A DNA stretch of 64,000 bases from a virus (taxonomy: Duplodnaviria > Caudoviricetes): the IMG/VR virus record IMGVR_UViG_2513237329_000013, positions 63,252 to 127,251 of that record, one strand, 5' to 3'. The position numbers were made by a program, and so were the translations under genes. The notes under the pieces were generated by a model. The model was not told the origin of the DNA and made no database searches. It saw only the letters and a list, made by a program, of their open reading frames with translations. Shown one piece after another: positions 16,667 to 59,552 of this stretch (positions are counted from its first letter, which is position 1; each line of letters opens with the position of its first letter).

Positions 16667-16696
16667 AAAGCTAATCTTATGAACGAGAGAGGGGTG

Positions 16697-16957
16697 ATGC
16701 GATTGGTTGGGTGTCAGTATTGCAAGAAAGCTCGTGCTTTCTGGGCTTACGATAGCCACGGAAGTCCTCACGGAAGCTATCAGAACGCACATATTGAGGT
16801 TGGAACGAATATCTTCCACGATACCGCTGGGCGGCAAATGCGCATTCGTTACTGTCCTATGTGCGGAAGATCTCTGCTGGATACCTCAGATGCGGGGGGG
16901 GTAACACAAGTGTTGTTTCCATTTTTGCAGCCCCGAAATCGTCTCGCCGTATCCTAA
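16697..16957 (+). CDS. Small Zn-binding phage protein
   Basis: CQYC...YCPMCGRSL; contains a G8 tract at 16894. Confidence 0.6.
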   Translation: MRLVGCQYCKKARAFWAYDSHGSPHGSYQNAHIEVGTNIFHDTAGRQMRIRYCPMCGRSLLDTSDAGGVTQVLFPFLQPRNRLAVS

Positions 16958-30208: not shown

Positions 30209-31648
30209 ATGTACGCAGCATATGTAACTCGTATTAAGAATTTGCGCAAACATTCAAACGCGGATCGACTTCTCTGCGGTGAATGTTTTGGCAATACGGT
30301 AATTGTGGGCTTGGATACAAAGCCAGAAGAGCTTGGTGTTTATTTCCCCGTAGATGGCAAGCTTGGAACTGAGTATGCGGTGAAGAATGACCTGCTTCGG
30401 CGTAAGGATGAAAACGGTAAGCCGGCTGGTGGTTATCTCGATCCTGAAAAGCGCAATATTAAGGCGTTGAAGCTTCGTGGCGAAAAGAGCGATGGCTTGT
30501 TTATGCCGTTGTCCAGTTTGAACGGGTTTACGGATATTGCAAAGCTCCGTGAGGGCGATGTAATTACCATTTTGAATGGTGTCACAATTTGTGAGAAGTA
30601 TATCCCACGTCGTAAGAAGAGTACCATTATGGTTGGGGGGGGTAGGACTCGTAAGCATCACGATCCTATTGCCCCGCTCTTTGCGGAACATGCTGACACG
30701 GAACAGCTTGCATATAACCTCAGCGCATTTCACCAAGGCGATCTTGTTGAGATTACTTTGAAAATGCACGGTACATCTCAGCGAACCGGATATCTGCCAA
30801 CGCTTAAAGGATATAAGAGGACATTGCTTGATAAACTCCTACATCGCGTTGGTTCTCCGATTTATAATTGGGGATATGTAACTGGCACTCGTCGTGTTGT
30901 TCTGGATGATTTTGACGGCGGCTTCTATGGCAGCAATGCTTTCCGTGAACAGCATAGCAAGGTTTTTGAAGGTAAGCTTCATAAGGGCGAAACCGTGTAC
31001 TATGAAGTCGTTGGCTTTACGCAAGACAAGCAGCCTATTATGGCATCTTGCGACAATAAAAAAGTCGGTGATAAGGAATTTGTTAAACAATACGGAGAAA
31101 AGACAGTGTTTAGCTATGGTTGCTATCCGGACGGTGTAAAGGAAGTAACAAATCCGAAAATTACATACGCAACAGTAATGATTGGCGATACCTCTTTTAC
31201 AGCAAATGAGATTACGGAATATGAATCTGCTCCGCAGTCTGATTTTTATGTGTATCGAATGACGATGACAAATGAGGATGGCGATGTTGTCGAATACACA
31301 CCTGACTTTATGCGTTATCGTTGTGAGCAGATGGGTGTTAAGTGCGTTCCGCTATTCGCTCGATTCATCATTCCGGATTACATCCAGCTTCCTGATGCTG
31401 TTGGATCTCCGATGGCTGTCAATGCTGGCGAATATGTCAAGGAGATTGCCGAAAACTTCTATGATGGTGCAGACCCGATTGGTAAGTCGCATGTCCGAGA
31501 GGGCGTTGTTTGCCGTATCGTAAACCGCCCAAAGTTTACAGCATATAAGCACAAGAATTTTGCATTCAAGGTACTTGAGGGAATTGTAAAGGATATTGCG
31601 TCTGCTCCGGACATGGAAGAAGCGCAGGATGAGACAAGCGCCGCGTAA
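30209..31648 (+). CDS. ATP-dependent RNA ligase (DRB0094/Rnl-like) with N-terminal OB/tRNA-binding-like domain
   Basis: HSNADRL, KLRGEKSDGL, TLKMHGTS (motif I), YYEVVG, REGVV, KHKNFAF. Confidence 0.8.
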   Translation: MYAAYVTRIKNLRKHSNADRLLCGECFGNTVIVGLDTKPEELGVYFPVDGKLGTEYAVKNDLLRRKDENGKPAGGYLDPEKRNIKALKLRGEKSDGLFMPLSSLNGFTDIAKLREGDVITILNGVTICEKYIPRRKKSTIMVGGGRTRKHHDPIAPLFAEHADTEQLAYNLSAFHQGDLVEITLKMHGTSQRTGYLPTLKGYKRTLLDKLLHRVGSPIYNWGYVTGTRRVVLDDFDGGFYGSNAFREQHSKVFEGKLHKGETVYYEVVGFTQDKQPIMASCDNKKVGDKEFVKQYGEKTVFSYGCYPDGVKEVTNPKITYATVMIGDTSFTANEITEYESAPQSDFYVYRMTMTNEDGDVVEYTPDFMRYRCEQMGVKCVPLFARFIIPDYIQLPDAVGSPMAVNAGEYVKEIAENFYDGADPIGKSHVREGVVCRIVNRPKFTAYKHKNFAFKVLEGIVKDIASAPDMEEAQDETSAA

Positions 31649-32593: not shown

Positions 32594-33508
32594 ATGTCTA
32601 TCTTTTTTATGATGGTAGGTCTTCCGTACAGCGGAAAATCTGTTTATGCGGAGGGGCTGCGAGAGAAGTTCGGCGCAGAGATTCATTCCAGCGATGCAAT
32701 TCGAGCAGAGATTCTTGGAAATGTACAGGATCAGACAAACAATCAGATTGTTTTTGACACTCTGCACAAGCGTGTAATTTCTGATTTGTCTGCTGGTAAA
32801 AATGTAATCTACGACGCGACGAATATCAATTACAAGCGGCGTATTGATCTGCTGAATCGCTTGTCAAAGGTAAAGTGTCAGAAGGTCTGTATCGTTATGG
32901 CGACACCTTTTCACGAATGTGAAGAGCGTAGCAAGCATCGTGAGCGTGTTGTCCCACACGAGGTTCTTGTGCGTATGTATAAGAATTTCTGGATTCCATA
33001 CTGGTATGAGGGGTGGGACGTAATCGAGCTTGTTTATCCAGATAATTTTGAGCCGTACAGTGTAAGTGATTTATTTAATCGTGATGGAGGACTGAATAGC
33101 TTCGAGCAGGACAATCCGCATCATATTTTCACGGTTGGACATCATTGTATTGCTACATACGGGCTGGTTTCTGATGGAAGTGCAGAGCTTCAGGAGGCTG
33201 CTCTTCTTCATGATATCGGTAAGCCTTTCACAAAAAGCTTTGTTAATAGTAAGGGCGAAACAACAGAGATTGCTCATTATTATGAACATCAGCATGTTTC
33301 AGCCTATGATAGCTTGTTCTACTCAAATCCAAGTTTGAATCGGCTGTATATCGCAAATATCATCCAGTGGCATATGCGTCCGTTTGAACTTGAACGAGAT
33401 TCCCATTCTGGCAAAGCACAGAAGCGGTTCAAAAAGCTTGTTGGCAATAAGCTTTATTCAGATGTGATGAAACTTCACGCCGCTGATATCGAAGCAAAAG
33501 GAACTTGA
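32594..33508 (+). CDS. Polynucleotide kinase (AAA_33) + HD phosphohydrolase
   Basis: GLPYSGKS, SSDAIR, YDATN; HH...ALLHDIGK...HM...D. Confidence 0.85.
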   Translation: MSIFFMMVGLPYSGKSVYAEGLREKFGAEIHSSDAIRAEILGNVQDQTNNQIVFDTLHKRVISDLSAGKNVIYDATNINYKRRIDLLNRLSKVKCQKVCIVMATPFHECEERSKHRERVVPHEVLVRMYKNFWIPYWYEGWDVIELVYPDNFEPYSVSDLFNRDGGLNSFEQDNPHHIFTVGHHCIATYGLVSDGSAELQEAALLHDIGKPFTKSFVNSKGETTEIAHYYEHQHVSAYDSLFYSNPSLNRLYIANIIQWHMRPFELERDSHSGKAQKRFKKLVGNKLYSDVMKLHAADIEAKGT

Positions 33509-34470
33509 TAAACAATATAAAGTGGGTGTTTGGCATTTACAGTAAAGAAGATTTAGATGTGATGCAGTCATGGGATTTGCAGCGAAAAATTCAAGTAACT
33601 ACAACTCGTATCATTGAGTGGTATGAGTATTTCGGCGGAAATGTTTATGTTGCATTTTCTGGCGGTAAAGATAGTACGGTTTTGCTTGATATCGTTCGCC
33701 GTATTTATCCAGATGTACCGGCTGTATTTTGTGATACTGGCTTGGAGTTTCCAGAAATTCGAGAATTTGTTAAGCAGCATGATAATGTTGTGATTTTGCG
33801 ACCTGAGATGAATTTCAGAAAGGTTATCGAAACATACGGATATCCAGTTGTCTCAAAGAGAGTTGCCGACACCGTAGAATATGGCAGTAAGCCAGGTTCT
33901 TATCGGTGGAAAGAGCTTCACGGAGAAATTATCCGTAGTAATGGCACTCCGTCGGAGTTTAATTGCGAAAAGTGGTGCTATCTTCTGGACGCTCCATTTA
34001 AGGTTTCTTCTCGTTGCTGCAATATTATGAAGAAGAAACCGCTGAAGAAGTATTTCAAAGAGACTGGTCGCGTTCCCATTATTGCAACTATGGCAGACGA
34101 GAGCCGATCTCGTAGATCTGCATGGATGAGACAAGGCTGTAATGCTTTTAGTAAGAAATCTCCAAGTTCTCAGCCGATGTCTTTCTGGACAGAAAATGAT
34201 GTTCTTGAGTATTTGCACACCTACAATATTCCCTACGCCTCCGTTTATGGCGAGATTATACCTTGCGGGGGGGGGTGGACAACGACAGGTGAAAGAAGAA
34301 CTGGTTGTGTCTTTTGCGCATTTGGCGCTCATCTGGAGAAGTCTCCAAACCGTTTCCAGCGATTAAAGGAAACGCATCCTAAGCTATGGGAATATTGTAT
34401 GAAGCCTTGGAGCGAACATGGCTTAGGTATGCGAACAGTATTAGAGTACATTGGTATTCCGTGTGAATAG
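33505..34470 (+). CDS. PAPS-reductase-family (PP-loop) protein 1
   Basis: FSGGKDS, DTGLEFP, CC...KKKP, RTGCVFC; in-frame G9 tract. Confidence 0.85.
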   Translation: MINNIKWVFGIYSKEDLDVMQSWDLQRKIQVTTTRIIEWYEYFGGNVYVAFSGGKDSTVLLDIVRRIYPDVPAVFCDTGLEFPEIREFVKQHDNVVILRPEMNFRKVIETYGYPVVSKRVADTVEYGSKPGSYRWKELHGEIIRSNGTPSEFNCEKWCYLLDAPFKVSSRCCNIMKKKPLKKYFKETGRVPIIATMADESRSRRSAWMRQGCNAFSKKSPSSQPMSFWTENDVLEYLHTYNIPYASVYGEIIPCGGGWTTTGERRTGCVFCAFGAHLEKSPNRFQRLKETHPKLWEYCMKPWSEHGLGMRTVLEYIGIPCE

Positions 34471-34486
34471 AAAGTGAGTTTTTGTA

Positions 34487-35795
34487 ATGCAACCAATTTT
34501 CAAAGAATACGCTCATTTCTTACATGATAATGGGTGTGATATATCTTGGTTTCAAGAAAGGACATATTGGTTGGATCACAACATTGTAAAAGCGTTTACG
34601 AGGGGGGGGGCAGCGGCTAATCTCGCTATATAAAATCGCTGTTTCTGACGATCTTACCGTTGCTCTTACAAAACACAAACAAAATGTTGATGGTCTGCAA
34701 TTTGAATCCTGGGACGAAACTATCGCGCGTTTTAGACCGCATCTTGAAAGTATTGAGCGTGATAGCATCGCTCTTCTTCGTCAGTATGGAATTGGGACAG
34801 AGCGGAAGATAGTCAATACAAATTCTACTGGCAAGGACAGCATGGTTGTTACACATCTTGCGAAAAAAGCAGGATTAAATTTTGAAACATATTTTAATGT
34901 TACAACCTTGGATGTTGCGGAAAGTAATCGTATGGCAAAGCGAAACGGATTCAAACACATTCTGCCCAATCCGGAGTATGGTGGATTTTACAAGTACATC
35001 CAACGCTATGATGGGGGGGGCAACCAAATGATACCAAGTAGATTGAATCGCTTCTGCTGTAATTATTTTAAGGAAAGCCCAACAATTGACTATTTTCCTG
35101 ACGATGAGCCTCTGATTTTCTTATTTGGAATGAGGAATCAAGAATCAGTTCGCCGGTCTGGTTATAAGGACATCTGGAAAAATGAAAAGTGGGGCGAGCG
35201 CGACTGGATTGCTCTTCTTCCAATTCGTCAATGGTCTGAGTTTGATATCTGGCTTTATATTTTGTCGGAAGATATTGAAATCAACGACAAGTATAGATAC
35301 GGATATGATCGCGTTGGATGTGGTATTGCTTGTCCGAATTATACAAAGTATACATGGGTTCTTGATAAATACTGGTATCCATATTTGTTTAATCGGTGGA
35401 GAAATATCTTACGGAACGACTTTATCAACAATAACAAGTGGCTCATTATGAATTGCACCGTTGATGAGTATGTAACAAAAGCATGGACTGGCGGTGTATA
35501 TCGTGACGAGCCGACAGAAGAGGTTATTTCTGAATTTTCTCAGTATTCTGGGCTGGATATACCAATTGCAAGAAAGTATTTTAATCGCTATTGCGCAAAT
35601 GGATGTATTAACAAGCGCCGTCAGCCTCTTCGGATCAAAGATAGAAATGCTCTTGCCATGAATATGAAAATGTTTGGAAGAAATATAAATCATTTTTTGT
35701 GCAAGAAATGCCTTATGAAAGAATTTGGTTGGAGCAAATCTCAATGGGACGAAAAAGTCAATGAATTCAAGGAACAAGGCTGTCAATTATTTTGA
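34487..35795 (+). CDS. PAPS-reductase-family protein 2, frameshifted at G9 (34602-34610)
   Basis: Deleting one G joins the ATG 34487 frame to STGKDS...RFCC...GMRNQES...RVGCGIAC. Confidence 0.75.
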
Positions 35796-35834: not shown

Positions 35835-36355
35835 ATGAAGATGGACAAAGTTGCTGGCAGTGGGAATGACGAATTCTACACGCCAGAGTATGCAGTTACA
35901 CCTATTGCAAAGTATCTTGCACCCCCCCCGCCGTAATTTGGTGTCCGTTTGATACGGAAGACAGTTTGTTTGTGAAACATTTTAGAGCTGCTGGGTATAC
36001 AGTTTTGGCAACACATATTTGTAATGGTCAGGACTTTTTTACTATGGAGACTCCAAACTGCGACTACATTATTAGCAATCCGCCATATTCCCTTAAAGGT
36101 GATGTTATTGACCGCCTGTTTGAAATCGGCAAACCGTTTGCAATGCTTGTTGGCGTTGTTGGGTTATTTGAAAGCCAACATCGGTTTAATCTTTTTAGGT
36201 CGCATGAATTTGAAATTATGTATTTGAACAAGCGCGTCTCATACTTTAAGGATTATGCAGAGCAAAAACCGTCGCTTAATCCTCCGTTTAGTAGCGTCTA
36301 TATTTGTAGCAAAATGCTTCCAAGAACCATTGTATTTGAAGAAATCGACAAATAA
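35835..36355 (+). CDS. Adenine DNA methyltransferase, frameshifted at C8 (35922-35929)
   Basis: NDEFYTP, then after adding one C, IWCPFD...ISNPPYS. Confidence 0.8.
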
Positions 36356-36367
36356 TAGGAGTTTTCA

Positions 36368-37051
36368 ATGAAATATACTACTTCCCTTTTCTGCGAGTTC
36401 GATAAGTACGCAGCAGAAAGCTATTGTGCGGTTCATGACACATCTCCGGAGCTAAATATTGGTGATATTACAAAGGCAGATGAAAAGTCTGTACCTGATT
36501 TTAATACCATGTTTGGTGGATCTCCGTGCCAGGACTTCTCTATCGCAGGGAAACAGGGGGGGGCTGCATGGACATGTAAAAACTGCGGTCATACATATAA
36601 CCCCCTTGAAGCCCATTACACAGAGCGAGACAAATGCCCGAATTGTGGTTCGACTAAGATTGAGAAAACACGCTCGTCTCTTTTGGTTGAATGGCTGCGC
36701 TTCCTTCGGGAGAAAAAGCCTCGTTTTGCTATCTATGAAAATGTCAAGAACATTGTAGGCGCTCGTTTTAGACCGACATTCGATCTATTCGTTAAAGAGC
36801 TTGAGGACTATGGTTATAATGTTCACTGGCAGGTATTAAATGCGAAAAATTATGGTATTCCTCAGAATCGAGAGCGTGTCTATTGTGTCATCATTCGTAA
36901 AGACTTGGATAACGGAAGGTTCAAATTTCCAGAGCCTATTTCGCTTAAACATACGCTTGCCGATATGTTAGAAACCGACGTCGATGAAAAATACTATCTC
37001 AGTGATGAGAAAGTGGCTGCAATGATCACCCCCCCCGCAGCGAATCAGTAA
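36368..37051 (+). CDS. C5-cytosine methyltransferase catalytic fragment (motifs II-VIII) with Zn-ribbon insert
   Basis: CEFDKYA, GDIT, GGSPCQDFS, CKNC/CPNC insert, ENVKN, QNRERV; no motif I. Confidence 0.85.
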   Translation: MKYTTSLFCEFDKYAAESYCAVHDTSPELNIGDITKADEKSVPDFNTMFGGSPCQDFSIAGKQGGAAWTCKNCGHTYNPLEAHYTERDKCPNCGSTKIEKTRSSLLVEWLRFLREKKPRFAIYENVKNIVGARFRPTFDLFVKELEDYGYNVHWQVLNAKNYGIPQNRERVYCVIIRKDLDNGRFKFPEPISLKHTLADMLETDVDEKYYLSDEKVAAMITPPAANQ

Positions 37052-37107
37052 AACAATTCGAGTCGGAGGAAGAAACTCAGCAGACAGACAACACCAATGG
37101 GACTTGG

Positions 37108-37248
37108 TTGCAGAAAACGCACGGAGTTCGATTGAGTAACAAAGGCAATAAGTTTGATGGATATAGCGACATTGCCCTAACCCTTCTTGCGAGAGACTAT
37201 AAGGGTTGGGGCAATCAGCAAATGACAGGAGTAATGGAAATTGACTGA
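37108..37248 (+). CDS. Stand-alone MTase target-recognition-like mini-ORF
   Basis: 46 aa: IALTLLARDYKGWGNQQMTGVME. Confidence 0.5.
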   Translation: MQKTHGVRLSNKGNKFDGYSDIALTLLARDYKGWGNQQMTGVMEID

Positions 37249-37432
37249 TAAAATTATTCAAGTTGGGAACTTGACGCAAGGTGCAAAACGCGAGAACCCG
37301 CAAAGAGGTCGAGTATACGATCCGTCAGGAATTGCACCGTCCCTCACCTGTATGGGGGGGGGTAATCTTCAGCCGTTTATAATTGTTTGTAACGAGCATG
37401 TTGAATTAGAAAGTAGTGCTGATGAAAAGTAG
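37241..37432 (+). CDS. Stand-alone MTase target-recognition-like mini-ORF
   Basis: NPQRGRVYDPSGIAPSLTCMGGGNLQPFI; in-frame G9. Confidence 0.6.
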   Translation: MTDKIIQVGNLTQGAKRENPQRGRVYDPSGIAPSLTCMGGGNLQPFIIVCNEHVELESSADEK

Positions 37433-38516
37433 CGTTTTGATTCCCGCAGCAATTCGCGGTCGTTATTCTGACAATGGTAGTATTGTGCAACGATTAGAGC
37501 TTAGGCCAGATAAATGCACGAATACGCTTACCTCTGTACAGAAAGACAATATTATAGTGGAATGCTGCATTGATATCCGTTTCTCCACTGAACGGAGTGA
37601 AGATGTGAAAGATAATAATATGCCAATCAATGTTGGAAATGTTAATCCGTCTGGGCATGGAATGAACGGTACGGTTTACGACTCGGATGGTGTTTCTCCG
37701 ACATTAACGACGAATAAAGGCGAGGGCGTAAAAATCCGCATTAAATCACCTACGCCATTACACCAGACAATTATCTATGATGACTACAATAGGAGGATCA
37801 AGTCGGATCAGACTTGTATAGGAACAGTTATGCCAAATTTCAAGAATGACGCTCCTGGTAATGGGACTAAGCTGATTGAAGTAAGTCCTACACCAGAGGA
37901 TAAAATCACAATGCTTGGTGGCTTGCAAAAGCATCAGACTCCGAGAGACGATGGTATCTGTCCATGCGTAAATAGCGCTGCTGGTATGGGCGGTGGGCAA
38001 ACGCCCATTGCAATGCGCCAAGGTTTTCGGGTAAGAAAACTCACGCCGAAAGAGTGTTGGCGTTTGATGGGTTTTGACGATGAGGATTTTGAAAAAGCAC
38101 GCGATGCTATGAACGAGAATATTTATAATGGTAACGACCGTTCCAGTTCGCAGCTCTACAAGCAGGCCGGCAACAGTATTGTCGTAGATGTTCTTCAGCA
38201 TATCATGGAGAATCTATATGACGCTATGCCATATCTGTTTGACGATATGTCTGTTGGATCGTTCTTTAGTGGTATTGGTGCTTTTGAAAAGGCACTTACC
38301 CGTTTAGAGAATCACCATAGCGAATCTGACGGCGATGCTGTATCCGCAGAGCTGATGCAGATTGGTTATATCAACGATTACAATGGTGATGCAAACCGCA
38401 TCTATGATGGAAACGCTGTTGCCCGCGCTTTGAAAGCGGAAGCTGGTGGGGGGGTGCGAAGACCGGATGGTACAGCGTCAATGCTCATTCAGCGTAATTG
38501 GAAGAGTGTTACCTGA
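37422..38516 (+). CDS. C5-MTase second fragment: multiple TRDs + motifs IX, X, then I
   Basis: TNTLTSVQKDN, VSPTLTT, RKLTPKECWRLMGF, YKQAGNSIVV, SFFSGIGAFE. Confidence 0.8.
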   Translation: MKSSVLIPAAIRGRYSDNGSIVQRLELRPDKCTNTLTSVQKDNIIVECCIDIRFSTERSEDVKDNNMPINVGNVNPSGHGMNGTVYDSDGVSPTLTTNKGEGVKIRIKSPTPLHQTIIYDDYNRRIKSDQTCIGTVMPNFKNDAPGNGTKLIEVSPTPEDKITMLGGLQKHQTPRDDGICPCVNSAAGMGGGQTPIAMRQGFRVRKLTPKECWRLMGFDDEDFEKARDAMNENIYNGNDRSSSQLYKQAGNSIVVDVLQHIMENLYDAMPYLFDDMSVGSFFSGIGAFEKALTRLENHHSESDGDAVSAELMQIGYINDYNGDANRIYDGNAVARALKAEAGGGVRRPDGTASMLIQRNWKSVT

Positions 38517-38634
38517 CAGTGGAAAACTACACCAAAACCAAGAGGTTTATGATACAAGCTGCGATAGCGGCGGTGGGATATCCCCTACTATCAAAGCGTC
38601 ACATTATAAAGATCCGCCAAAAATAAGGGTGTAA
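38467..38634 (+). CDS. MTase target-recognition-like module (free, or fused via the G7 tract)
   Basis: HQNQEVYD...GISPTIKASHYKDPPKI. Confidence 0.5.
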   Translation: MVQRQCSFSVIGRVLPDSGKLHQNQEVYDTSCDSGGGISPTIKASHYKDPPKIRV

Positions 38635-38637
38635 ACA

Positions 38638-38841
38638 ATGGAAAAGGTAAAAATTAGACAGGCCACAAAACAGGGTTTTATTGAGTGCGTCGTGGGGGGG
38701 GCTGTCGATCTCTCCTATCCCAACTCAAAAACAAGGCGTGGTCGAGTGCAAGAGAGCGGAACGATTTGCCCAACAATTACAGCACAGAATACTGGAATCT
38801 GCCTTATTGAAAAAGCAGATTATTCCCGCAAATCCACTTGA
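38638..38841 (+). CDS. Stand-alone MTase target-recognition-like mini-ORF
   Basis: IRQATKQGFIE...DLSYPNSKTRRGRVQ...CPTIT; in-frame G8. Confidence 0.65.
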   Translation: MEKVKIRQATKQGFIECVVGGAVDLSYPNSKTRRGRVQESGTICPTITAQNTGICLIEKADYSRKST

Positions 38842-59104: not shown

Positions 59105-59552
59105 ATGAACACAGGAGTAATGTTTTCATCGAAGTCTATGAATTGGGCAACGCCGCAGGACTTCTTTGATAAACTCAACTCCGAGTTTCACTTTACCCTT
59201 GATCCGTGTGCAGACAGTGAAAACCATAAATGTGCTACATATTACACAGAGCGAGAAAATGGTCTTGCACAGTGCTGGGGGGGGGCAAACGGTCTTCTGT
59301 AATCCGCCATACGGAAGAGCGATTAAGGATTGGGTAAAGAAATGCTCGGAGGAATCGTTAAAACCAAATACGACGGTTGTAATGTTGATTCCAGCACGAA
59401 CCGATACGAGTTATTTCCACGATTATATCTATCAAAAACCGAATGTTGAAATTCGTTTTATTCGTGGACGATTAAAATTCGGAGATGGAAAGAACTCCGC
59501 CCCATTCCCAAGCATGGTGGTTATATTCAAATCTAAAAAGGATGGAACATAA
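59105..59552 (+). CDS. Phage Dam-like N6-adenine MTase, frameshifted at G9 (59277-59285)
   Basis: WATPQ..F..FTLDPCA; deleting one G gives WGGQTVFCNPPYG...LIPARTDT...GRLKF...APFPS. Confidence 0.85.

What the first reader, a model, noticed from the sequence alone, without database searches (positions are those of the whole stretch)
36368..38841. Split, permuted C5-methyltransferase with a library of free-standing target-recognition modules
Seen: ORF 36368 has motifs II-VIII (plus a CxxC-CxxC insert after PCQ) but no motif I. ORF 37422 carries several TRD-like repeats, motifs IX-X and then motif I (FFSGIG). More TRD-like units occur as separate mini-ORFs (37108, 37241, 38467, 38638) or are reachable only by tract slippage. 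C8 to C7 at 37029 adds SKTIRVGGR..HQWDLV. At 38448, G8 gives GGGGAKTGWY and G6/G9 fuses the HYKDPPKI module. Known: Bacillus phage multispecific MTases carry tandem TRDs in one chain. Inference: specificity modules may be supplied in trans and switched individually.
Basis: partly seen in the sequence, partly recalled or inferred. Interest (0 to 1): 0.75.

Follow-up and report, generated by a model that had tools for sequence, protein, structure and literature searches.

The report
Slippage-switched, split, permuted phage cytosine methyltransferase
A common gut prophage encodes a DNA cytosine methyltransferase that is circularly rearranged, split into two chains, and studded with slippage-prone runs of G or C, each of which switches one DNA-recognition module on, off or over to another, so the phage population can probably vary which sites it methylates.

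Summary

- **Two chains.** ORF 36368-37051 has C5-MTase motifs II-VIII and a zinc ribbon but no motif I. ORF 37416-38516 has four TRD-like modules, motifs IX and X, then motif I, a linker and another TRD.
- **Five tracts.** G/C runs of 7-9 bases punctuate the locus. By their length they give core ON/OFF (36556), no TRD, TRDa or TRDb (37029), TRDc ON/OFF (37354), three alternative endings (38448) and TRDj ON/OFF (38694).
- **Not decay or assembly error.**
  - About 30 related phages and prophages keep the architecture and the tracts.
  - Ten short-read assemblies 99.7-99.9% identical to the window each carry a different combination of tract lengths. Every 1-2 nt indel lies in a tract.
  - All modules, including the out-of-frame ones, are under purifying selection.
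  - Runs of 8 or more are about 30-fold over-represented, and 10 of 13 lie in DNA-modification genes.
- **The permutation is a family trait.** Thousands of tract-free single-chain proteins with order II-X then I occur in gut Firmicutes. I found no published description of this topology.
- **In trans.** This is untested. Most modules join in cis by slippage. TRDj is truly free-standing.

The scan has flagged the same system on other genomes: e1-5756805, e1-5756809, e1-5938645, e1-5922181 and e1-5899221.

The parts
33505..34470 (+). PAPS-reductase-like gene 1, with an in-frame G9 tract at 34267-34275 (ON here)
   Evidence: PF01507 / phrog_424. The tract is G6-G10 in near-identical genomes.
34487..35795 (+). 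PAPS-reductase-like gene 2. It is broken here at the G9 tract 34602-34610 (G8 would give 435 aa). A second tract, G8 at 35013-35020, is in frame.
   Evidence: The PP-loop STGKDS lies upstream of ATG 34842. Intact 435-aa calls occur in L151 and L152.
35835..36355 (+). N6-adenine methyltransferase (NPPY motif), broken here at the C8 tract 35922-35929 (C9 gives 173 aa)
   Evidence: phrog_799. It is an intact 175-aa ORF with C9 in Dysosmobacter segnis L081.
36368..37051 (+). Chain A of the C5-MTase: motifs II-VIII plus a zinc ribbon, no motif I, own AGGAG ribosome-binding site and ATG
   Evidence: PF00145 at E 2.2e-48. It is 77-99% identical in relatives.
36556..36563 (+). Tract T1 (G8): master ON/OFF switch of chain A, just after the PCQ loop
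   Evidence: Where a run of 7 or more is present, G8 is ON (13 genomes incl. the window) and G7 or G9 is off (16). It is G7-G10 in 99.9%-identical genomes.
37029..37036 (+). Tract T2 (C8): three-way selector at the C-terminus of chain A
   Evidence: C8 gives a stop (227 aa). C7 or C10 adds TRDa (256-257 aa). C9 adds TRDb (293 aa). 293-aa products are called in L148, L149, L151 and L154.
37038..37139 (+). TRDa (..TIRVGGR..HQWDLV..), in frame 0. It overlaps the linker of TRDb, which is read in another frame.
   Evidence: It is fused to chain A in L004, L007, L017, L020 and L021. dN/dS is 0.1-0.35.
37037..37248 (+). Acidic linker plus TRDb (..TLLARDYKG..), in frame 1, read when T2 is C9
   Evidence: It is fused to chain A in 16 relatives. 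dN is 0.11-0.22 with dS saturated.
37241..37432 (+). TRDc mini-ORF (63 aa; TTG start 9 nt after AGGAG) with tract T3 (G9, 37354-37362). It is ON here.
   Evidence: In L007, L013 and L014 the same module is the N-terminus of chain B. It is G7-G9 in near-identical genomes.
37416..38516 (+). Chain B: TRDd (37446), TRDe (37632), TRDf (37770), TRDg (37905), motif IX (38028), motif X (38151), junction AMPYLFDD (38223), motif I FFSGIGAFE (38262), acidic linker (38307), TRDh (38361)
   Evidence: PF00145 positions 270-322. It is 40.9% identical to the phage SPR MTase over aa 73-267. The X-I junction is conserved in all relatives.
38448..38454 (+). Tract T4 (G7): three-way selector at the end of TRDh
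   Evidence: G8 completes TRDh (GGGGAKTGWY; 360 aa). G6 or G9 fuses TRDi (405-406 aa). G7 gives an unrelated 20-aa tail. Eight of 11 near-identical genomes have G8.
38455..38634 (+). TRDi (..SPTIKASHYKDPPKI..), in frame 1, reached only by slippage at T4
   Evidence: It is in frame with chain B in L001 and L002 and deleted in L005 and L006.
38638..38841 (+). TRDj mini-ORF (67 aa, own ATG and ribosome-binding site) with tract T5 (G8, 38694-38701). It is ON here.
   Evidence: G8 is ON and G7 or G9 is off in relatives. It is free-standing behind an MT-A70-like gene in L020-L022. The same module sits just before motif IX in single-chain relatives and in L027. dN/dS is 0.04-0.15.
59105..59552 (+). 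Third methyltransferase (Dam-like N6-adenine), split here at a G9 tract at 59277-59285
   Evidence: phrog_111.

Best explanation
This is a phage self-protection enzyme: a multispecific DNA cytosine-5 methyltransferase built on a circularly permuted core.

- Assembly. The core has motif I moved behind motif X and is expressed as two polypeptides. Chain A carries motifs II-VIII. Chain B carries TRDs, then IX, X and I. The two chains must assemble, as in M.AquI.
- Where the TRDs sit. About ten short target-recognition modules hang at three points: the C-terminus of A, the N-terminus of B, and behind motif I on B. At least one more (TRDj) is a separate small protein.
- How they switch. Five hypermutable G/C runs change length by replication slippage and so set the reading frame. 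T1 turns the catalytic chain on or off. T2 chooses none, TRDa or TRDb from overlapping frames. T3 and T5 turn TRDc and TRDj on or off. T4 chooses between a truncated TRDh, a complete TRDh, or TRDi.
- Likely consequence. With the core on, this gives 36 possible module sets. The phage population would therefore be a mixture of methylation patterns. That is a bet-hedge against host Type II restriction, which methylation blocks, and methyl-dependent restriction, which methylation provokes.
- Wider module. Neighbouring modification genes (two PAPS-reductase-like genes and two N6-MTases) carry the same kind of switch.

Shown here: the architecture, its conservation, the length-to-frame rules, tract hypervariability between near-identical genomes, and purifying selection on all modules.

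Inferred, not shown: methyltransferase activity of A+B, one specificity per module, function of the TRDs behind motif I, and the bet-hedging benefit.
For: - Motifs and order.
- The same two-chain, tract-bearing architecture is found in 26 IMG/VR phages and in prophages of Dysosmobacter segnis BX15 and other Oscillospiraceae/Clostridia.
- The length-to-frame rule is consistent across about 30 genomes.
- In 7 genomes at 90-98.6% identity, all indels not divisible by three within 36368-38841 are at the 5 tracts.
- Ten MEGAHIT/SPAdes assemblies are 99.7-99.9% identical over 12.4 kb. Each has a different combination of lengths at 9 tracts, and all 1-2 nt indels are at tracts.
- dN is much lower than dS for every module, including modules out of frame in this genome.
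- G/C runs of 8 or more: 11 observed against 0.36 expected. Runs of 5-6 are depleted. Clustering P = 2.5e-10.
- The permuted core is viable.
  - More than 5000 protein clusters match the X-I junction. All 120 of the best hits have motif I after X.
  - Intact single-chain examples occur in cultured Faecalimonas, Dorea, Blautia and Coprococcus.
  - The AF2 model of one has core pLDDT above 90, including the C-terminal motif I strand and helix. Its best structural match is M.HhaI.
  - Engineered permutants with the new N-terminus just after motif I (cp35M.MpeI, cp33M.SssI) are active in vivo (PMC5944983).
- TRDh aligns to the M.HhaI TRD (residues 230-267). Modules e-g align to the SPR MTase at 40.9% identity.
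Against: - No biochemical or methylome data exist, and no read-level data on within-population heterogeneity.
- In 118 of the 120 closest single-chain family members the chain ends 11-31 residues after motif I. TRDs behind motif I are therefore unusual. The motif I/II break lies on the side of the Rossmann fold away from the DNA cleft (textbook geometry, not measured here), so these modules would need the linker of about 18 residues to reach DNA.
- AF2 gave pLDDT below 50 for all TRD regions, so nothing is known about their docking.
- The catalytic chain is off (T1) in 16 of the 29 genomes (window included) that carry a T1 run of 7 or more. This fits phase variation, but it also shows that loss is tolerated.
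- The window's own T4 state (G7) yields a tail with no recognisable function.
Confidence: 0.7

Rival explanations
1. The broken ORFs are pseudogene decay or homopolymer sequencing and assembly errors in what is really one continuous gene.
For: Several modification genes are frameshifted in the window. Homopolymers are error-prone in some sequencing technologies.
Against: - The A/B split (stop of TRDb, then a ribosome-binding site and start of TRDc) has no tract and is conserved down to 58% identity (L027).
- The tracts themselves are conserved at homologous positions across clades whose synonymous sites are saturated.
- All modules keep open frames with dN much lower than dS.
- Length variation is seen in short-read MEGAHIT/SPAdes assemblies and in an isolate genome.
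- The run-length distribution is bimodal, with no runs of length 6.
Confidence: 0.03
2. The tracts act mainly as programmed transcriptional or ribosomal slippage sites. Every phage would then make a fixed mixture of isoforms, rather than heritable ON/OFF variants.
For: Overlapping-frame modules behind a slippery run (T2, T4) resemble programmed frameshift cassettes. Long homopolymers can cause RNA polymerase slippage (general knowledge).
Against: DNA-level length differs between genomes that are otherwise 99.9% identical, so the state is heritable and variable. Some lineages have 'locked' tracts through interruption or deletion: L003/L004 at T5, L153 at T3 and L002 at T2. That only makes sense if DNA length matters. 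The two mechanisms could coexist.
Confidence: 0.1
3. Only TRDs lying between motif VIII and motif IX are active. The modules behind motif I (h, i) and the mini-ORFs (c in this clade, j) would be silent spare cassettes kept for recombinational exchange between phages.
For: - Trailing TRDs are rare in the single-chain family (2 of 120).
- The same module types appear in different positions in different genomes (TRDj before IX in L027 and L088; a TRDd-like module behind motif I in L086 and L027), which shows cassette shuffling.
- Their position behind motif I is geometrically awkward.
Against: - These modules carry their own conserved hypermutable tracts and, for c and j, Shine-Dalgarno sequences and start codons. 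Silent cassettes would not need these.
- dN/dS is 0.04-0.15 for TRDj.
- L086 keeps two TRDs behind motif I in one uninterrupted ORF.
- TRDh is present behind motif I in every phage clade.
Confidence: 0.17

Closest known systems
Multispecific C5-methyltransferases of Bacillus phages (M.SPRI, M.Phi3TI, M.Rho11sI, SPbeta)
   Same: These are phage-borne orphan C5-MTases with a tandem array of short TRDs, each thought to give one specificity. Chain B residues 73-267 are 40.9% identical to the SPR enzyme.
   Different: They are single chains in canonical order I-X, with all TRDs constitutively in frame, no slippery tracts and no TRDs outside the VIII-IX interval.
Two-polypeptide C5-MTases M.AquI (alpha/beta) and M.EcoHK31I (beta encoded in an alternative frame inside alpha)
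   Same: The enzyme is assembled from separately translated pieces split in the variable region. Small polypeptides and overlapping reading frames are used.
   Different: In those enzymes motif I stays with motifs II-VIII. They have no permutation, no TRD array and no switching.
Natural circularly permuted C5-MTases (M.BssHII, M.Alw26I, M.Esp3I, M2.BsaI; plant DRM2) and engineered cp35M.MpeI / cp33M.SssI
   Same: Motif X is covalently followed by motif I. DRM2 is even hit across the X-I junction. The engineered permutants with an N-terminus just after motif I have the same topology and are active (PMC5944983).
   Different: [quoted passage not shown] DRM is permuted between V and VI. Here the break is between motifs I and II, a natural topology for which I found no description.
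Contingency loci / phase-variable methyltransferases (Type III mod phasevarions; the poly-G in Type I hsdS of NgoAV that changes specificity) and phage poly-G tracts (Campylobacter Fletchervirus receptor-binding proteins; the methylase gene of Bordetella phage BPP-1; T2/T4 contingency loci)
   Same: Homopolymer slippage gives heritable, reversible frame changes. Phage examples are cited.
   Different: Known cases are single ON/OFF switches, or one truncation. Here several tracts in one enzyme each address a different recognition module, including two three-way selectors that use overlapping frames. The enzyme is a phage C5-MTase of gut Firmicutes.

Membership tests
DNA cytosine-5 methyltransferase (PF00145) | Catalytic and cofactor motifs are present: I (FxGxG), IV (PCQ), VI (ENV), VIII (QxRxR), IX and X (GNS) | tested here: met
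   All are present but distributed over two ORFs. They are invariant in the 19-sequence family alignment.
DNA cytosine-5 methyltransferase (PF00145) | Canonical linear order I-X in one polypeptide | tested here: not met
   The order is II-VIII | TRDs-IX-X-I. The same order is found in single-chain relatives.
DNA cytosine-5 methyltransferase (PF00145) | Transfers a methyl group to C5 of cytosine in DNA | not testable with these tools
   This needs expression and methylome mapping.
Multispecific phage C5-MTases (SPR/phi3T type) | Tandem array of two or more TRD-like modules, with sequence similarity to the SPR family | tested here: met
   About 10 modules are present. Identity to the SPR MTase is 40.9%. 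TRDh aligns to the M.HhaI TRD.
Multispecific phage C5-MTases (SPR/phi3T type) | Each TRD independently confers one target specificity | not testable with these tools
   Inference only.
Type-H permuted C5-MTases (M.BssHII group) | New N-terminus in the variable region, so that IX-X precede I-VIII | tested here: not met
   The break is between motifs I and II. The literature definition comes from PMC5944983.
Split C5-MTases (M.AquI type) | Two separately translated chains split in the variable region | tested here: met
   The stop of A/TRDb at 37246-37248 overlaps the ribosome-binding site and TTG start of the next cistron at 37241. This is conserved down to L027.
Split C5-MTases (M.AquI type) | Both chains are required and sufficient for activity | not testable with these tools
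   No multimer prediction or assay was available.
Contingency locus (phase variation by simple-sequence-repeat slippage) | Repeat tract inside the coding sequence, over-represented against chance | tested here: met
Contingency locus (phase variation by simple-sequence-repeat slippage) | Tract length is polymorphic among otherwise near-identical genomes, and the frame follows the length | tested here: met
Contingency locus (phase variation by simple-sequence-repeat slippage) | High-frequency reversible switching within a clonal population | not testable with these tools
   This needs reads or lineage experiments.

The most novel reading that the evidence does not exclude
Free-standing 63-67-residue TRD proteins act in trans as plug-in specificity subunits for the two-chain C5-MTase core. 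TRDj does so in nearly every clade checked, and TRDc does so in this clade. Each has its own ribosome-binding site and its own ON/OFF tract. They would be the C5-MTase equivalent of a separate specificity subunit such as HsdS.
Probability: 0.25. Interest if true: 0.9.

Novelty: new variant of a known kind. Interest (0 to 1): 0.8.

Why it matters
The locus brings together three things that are each known only in simpler form.

1. **A new natural permutation.** This is a circular permutation of C5-MTases with motif I at the C-terminus. It is very abundant in gut Firmicutes mobile elements, yet it is annotated only as 'DNA cytosine methyltransferase'.
2. **A further split.** That permuted core is divided into two chains, with recognition modules tethered at unorthodox positions or encoded separately.
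3. **Combinatorial phase variation in a virus.** Several independent slippery tracts, two of them three-way frame selectors, each address one recognition module.

If the mechanism holds, temperate gut phages diversify their own methylation pattern stochastically. That would change how phage-host restriction arms races and metagenomic methylation-based host linkage should be read. It would also offer a natural, modular scaffold for engineering methyltransferase specificity.

The phage is common: its neighbouring gene product is on record in 2505 blocks of public assemblies. Relatives sit in cultured strains, so the idea is directly testable.

Tried and rejected
- **GenBank phage collection.** It holds no close relative, only SPR-type and streptococcal MTases at about 40% identity, none covering the motif I tail.
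- **AF2 model.** The model of the single-chain relative with trailing TRDs (L086) gave a confident core but pLDDT below 50 for all TRD regions. It says nothing about where the trailing TRDs dock.
- **Model coordinates.** They are not available to scripts. I could not verify which strands pair with the motif I strand. I therefore did not spend the second fold job on chain B, and no multimer tool exists.
- **dS saturation.** dS is saturated between clades, so most dN/dS values are only upper-bounded. The 'linker+h' row was computed in the wrong frame and must be ignored.
- **T4 in L148.** The 'G9' arises from a T-to-G substitution, not an insertion, so its frame equals the window's G7 state.
- **Literature.** Searches found no description of a natural C5-MTase permuted between motifs I and II, nor of TRD-level slippage switching in a phage MTase. 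The library lacks most subscription journals, so absence is not proof.
- **Host.** It was not identified. The only named hosts are those of related prophages (Dysosmobacter segnis, Oscillospiraceae).
Full report
**What is there**

The window is the second half of a single 127,251-bp contig with 43% G+C. The neighbouring genes are an ERF recombinase, a primase-helicase, a PolIII alpha, an RNA ligase and an HD phosphohydrolase. Contigs of 200-300 kb also carry the element. Together these mark it as a large temperate phage or prophage.

Between 33.5 and 38.9 kb lies a DNA-modification module on the + strand:
- two PAPS-reductase-like genes
- an N6-adenine methyltransferase
- the cytosine-5 methyltransferase of the finding

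**Checking the observation**

ORF 36368-37051 has its own AGGAG ribosome-binding site and ATG. It starts directly at motif II (LFCEFDKYA) and carries PCQ, a CxxC...CxxC zinc ribbon, ENV and QNRERV. It has no FxGxG.

ORF 37416-38516 carries, in order:
- four TRD-like modules
- motif IX (RVRKLTPKECW)
- motif X (QAGNSIVVDVL)
- the junction AMPYLFDD
- motif I (FFSGIGAFEKAL)
- an acidic linker
- a further TRD that resembles the M.HhaI TRD

Further TRD-like modules lie in other frames or in small ORFs. One addition is that C9 at 37029 reads through a linker into the TLLARDYKG module. 'Mini-ORF 37108' is therefore the third arm of a three-way switch, not a gene of its own.

**The tracts are selected features**

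| G/C run length | Observed | Expected (first-order Markov) |
|---|---|---|
| 5 | 11 | 39 |
| 6 | 0 | 7.2 |
| 8 | 7 | 0.29 |
| 9 | 4 | 0.07 |

Nine of the 13 runs of 7 or more fall in the 5.3-kb module (P = 2.5e-10). A tenth splits another Dam-like MTase at 59277.

**Relatives**

A scan of IMG/VR returned 26 phage contigs with the same layout at 59-96% identity to chain B, and a deeper relative (L027, 40-58%). In all of them:
- chain A lacks motif I
- chain B has IX-X-I
- TRDs follow motif I
- the G/C tracts sit at homologous positions, but with different lengths

Across about 30 genomes the frame follows the length by one rule:
- T1: G8 is ON; G7 or G9 is off.
- T2: C8 gives a stop; C7 or C10 gives TRDa; C9 gives TRDb.
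- T5: G8 is ON.

In seven genomes 90-98.6% identical, the only indels within the MTase region that are not multiples of three are at the five tracts.

The strongest test comes from ten loci fetched through an exactly identical neighbouring protein. They are MEGAHIT and SPAdes assemblies from different studies. They are 99.7-99.9% identical to the window over 12.4 kb, with 10-39 substitutions. Each has a different combination of lengths at the nine tracts, and all 1-2 nt indels are at tracts. The gene calls in those assemblies show the predicted products:
- chain A of 227 or 293 aa
- chain B of 358 or 364 aa
- TRD ORFs of 63 and 67 aa, present or absent
- PAPS-reductase 2 of 435 aa when intact

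Some lineages have locked a switch by interrupting or deleting the tract. All modules, including those out of frame in this genome, have dN far below a saturated dS. Decay and assembly error are therefore excluded.

**The permutation is older and much wider than the phage lineage**

A scan of bacterial genomes with the 51-residue X-I junction found 24 uninterrupted, tract-free single-chain proteins of 364-618 aa with order II-VIII, TRD(s), IX, X, I. They occur in:
- cultured Faecalimonas umbilicata, Dorea, Blautia and Coprococcus
- a Coprobacillaceae genome
- many MAGs

A search of 5.8 billion proteins returned more than 5000 clusters. All 120 best hits have motif I after motif X, and 119 have none before PCQ. 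Where named at all, they are named only 'DNA (cytosine-5-)-methyltransferase'.

An AlphaFold2 model of one member has pLDDT above 90 for the catalytic domain. This includes the C-terminal motif I strand (residues 423-428) and helix (434-447). M.HhaI is the best structural match.

The same scan hit pairs of canonical C5-MTase genes in tandem, where motif X of the first abuts motif I of the second (L115, L143, L144, L146, L147). This is the arrangement from which duplication, fusion and truncation would produce the permutation.

The 2018 survey of REBASE found 27 natural permuted C5-MTases, all permuted in the variable region. The same paper showed that engineered permutants starting just after motif I are active in vivo (PMC5944983). 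I found no later description of this natural topology.

**How it most likely works**

Chains A and B assemble into one catalytic core. This is inferred from M.AquI-type enzymes, from the active single-chain relatives' fold, and from the engineered permutants.

TRDd-g on chain B are constitutive. The five tracts decide whether:
- the core is made at all (T1)
- chain A ends bare, with TRDa or with TRDb (T2)
- TRDc is made (T3)
- chain B ends with a complete TRDh, with TRDi or with a meaningless tail (T4)
- TRDj is made (T5)

That gives 36 module sets when the core is on. The window's own state is:

| Tract | State in the window |
|---|---|
| T1 | ON |
| T2 | no TRD |
| T3 | ON |
| T4 | the minority G7 tail |
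| T5 | ON |

PAPS-reductase 2, the N6-MTase and the Dam-like MTase are off.

A plausible benefit is bet-hedging. Each added methylation motif protects against some Type II systems but exposes the phage to methyl-dependent restriction. This last step is inference.

**In cis or in trans?**

TRDa, TRDb, the end of TRDh and TRDi are fused in cis by slippage. TRDc is the N-terminus of chain B in other clades (L007, L013, L014). In the window's clade it is a separate 63-aa ORF with its own ribosome-binding site.

TRDj is free-standing in nearly every clade checked, with a Shine-Dalgarno sequence, a start codon and an internal ON/OFF tract; in L027 it is fused in front of motif IX. In L020-L022 it lies behind an MT-A70-like gene, so no slippage could join it to chain B. 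It is nevertheless conserved, 85-88% identical. In single-chain relatives and in L027 the same module sits directly before motif IX.

The TRDs behind motif I are the least understood part:
- They are present in every phage clade and in one uninterrupted ORF (L086).
- They are absent from 118 of the 120 closest single-chain proteins.

**What is known already**

- Multispecific phage C5-MTases, split C5-MTases and permuted C5-MTases are all established.
- Phase-variable MTases are established.
- Poly-G contingency tracts are reported in phage genes: Campylobacter phage receptor-binding proteins, a methylase gene of Bordetella phage BPP-1, and T2/T4.
- What appears new is the permutation site, the placement of TRDs, and the use of several tracts, including two three-way selectors, to address individual recognition modules of one enzyme.

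The scan itself has flagged the same system in other genomes, once with a follow-up that reached a similar verdict. I treated those notes as leads and tested the claims here independently.

**Verdict**

This is a real, conserved and common system that is a new variant of known kinds. Enzymatic activity, per-module specificity and trans action remain to be shown.

Noticed in passing
window 34267-35020; L155: One near-identical genome (L155) has a 746-bp deletion. It runs from the G tract of PAPS-reductase 1 to the second G tract of PAPS-reductase 2 and fuses the two paralogues. The tracts may therefore also serve as recombination or deletion end-points.
   Followed up: partly
window 59105-59552: A third methyltransferase (Dam-like, WATPQDFF...NPPY) is split at a G9 tract at 59277. 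This makes 10 of the 13 long G/C runs in the genome fall in DNA-modification genes.
   Followed up: partly
window 30635 and 16894: A G8 tract lies in frame inside an RNA ligase gene (30209-31648, phrog_968). Another G8 lies near the end of a 92-aa CxxC ORF (16679-16957). These may be further switches outside the modification module.
   Followed up: no
L003/L004 (T5), L153 (T3), L002 (T2), L081 (T2): Some lineages carry 'locked' switches. Tracts are interrupted by a substitution (GGGTGGGG, GGGGAGGG), shortened to C6, or removed by a 60-bp in-frame deletion that fuses chain A permanently to TRDb.
   Followed up: partly
L148 (window 36138-36284) and L152 (window 36528): L148 has an in-frame 147-bp deletion in the N6-MTase. 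L152 has a 130-bp insertion just upstream of tract T1. Both genomes are otherwise 99.9% identical to the window.
   Followed up: no
proteins P0052, P0054, P0059, P0060, P0064, P0077, P0090, P0098: Some single-chain permuted C5-MTases are 845-881 aa long and carry intein/Hint domains (PF14890, PF13403).
   Followed up: no
window 36575-36649 and alignment A1: A CxxC...CxxC zinc ribbon inserted after the motif IV loop is conserved in almost the whole permuted family. It is absent only from L096.
   Followed up: no
L115, L116, L143, L144, L146, L147: Pairs of canonical C5-MTase genes lie in tandem, with motif X of the first directly abutting motif I of the second. This is a plausible precursor arrangement for the permutation.
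   Followed up: partly
L020-L022 (e.g. L021 5390-5941): An MT-A70-like (DPPW) methyltransferase gene is inserted between chain B and the TRDj mini-ORF in one clade. It carries a C8 tract of its own (L020 7230).
   Followed up: partly
genome position 34460 (outside the window): The only long C run outside coding sequence (C7) sits in a GGAGGGAGG...CCCCCCCTCC hairpin. It looks like a terminator rather than a switch.
   Followed up: no
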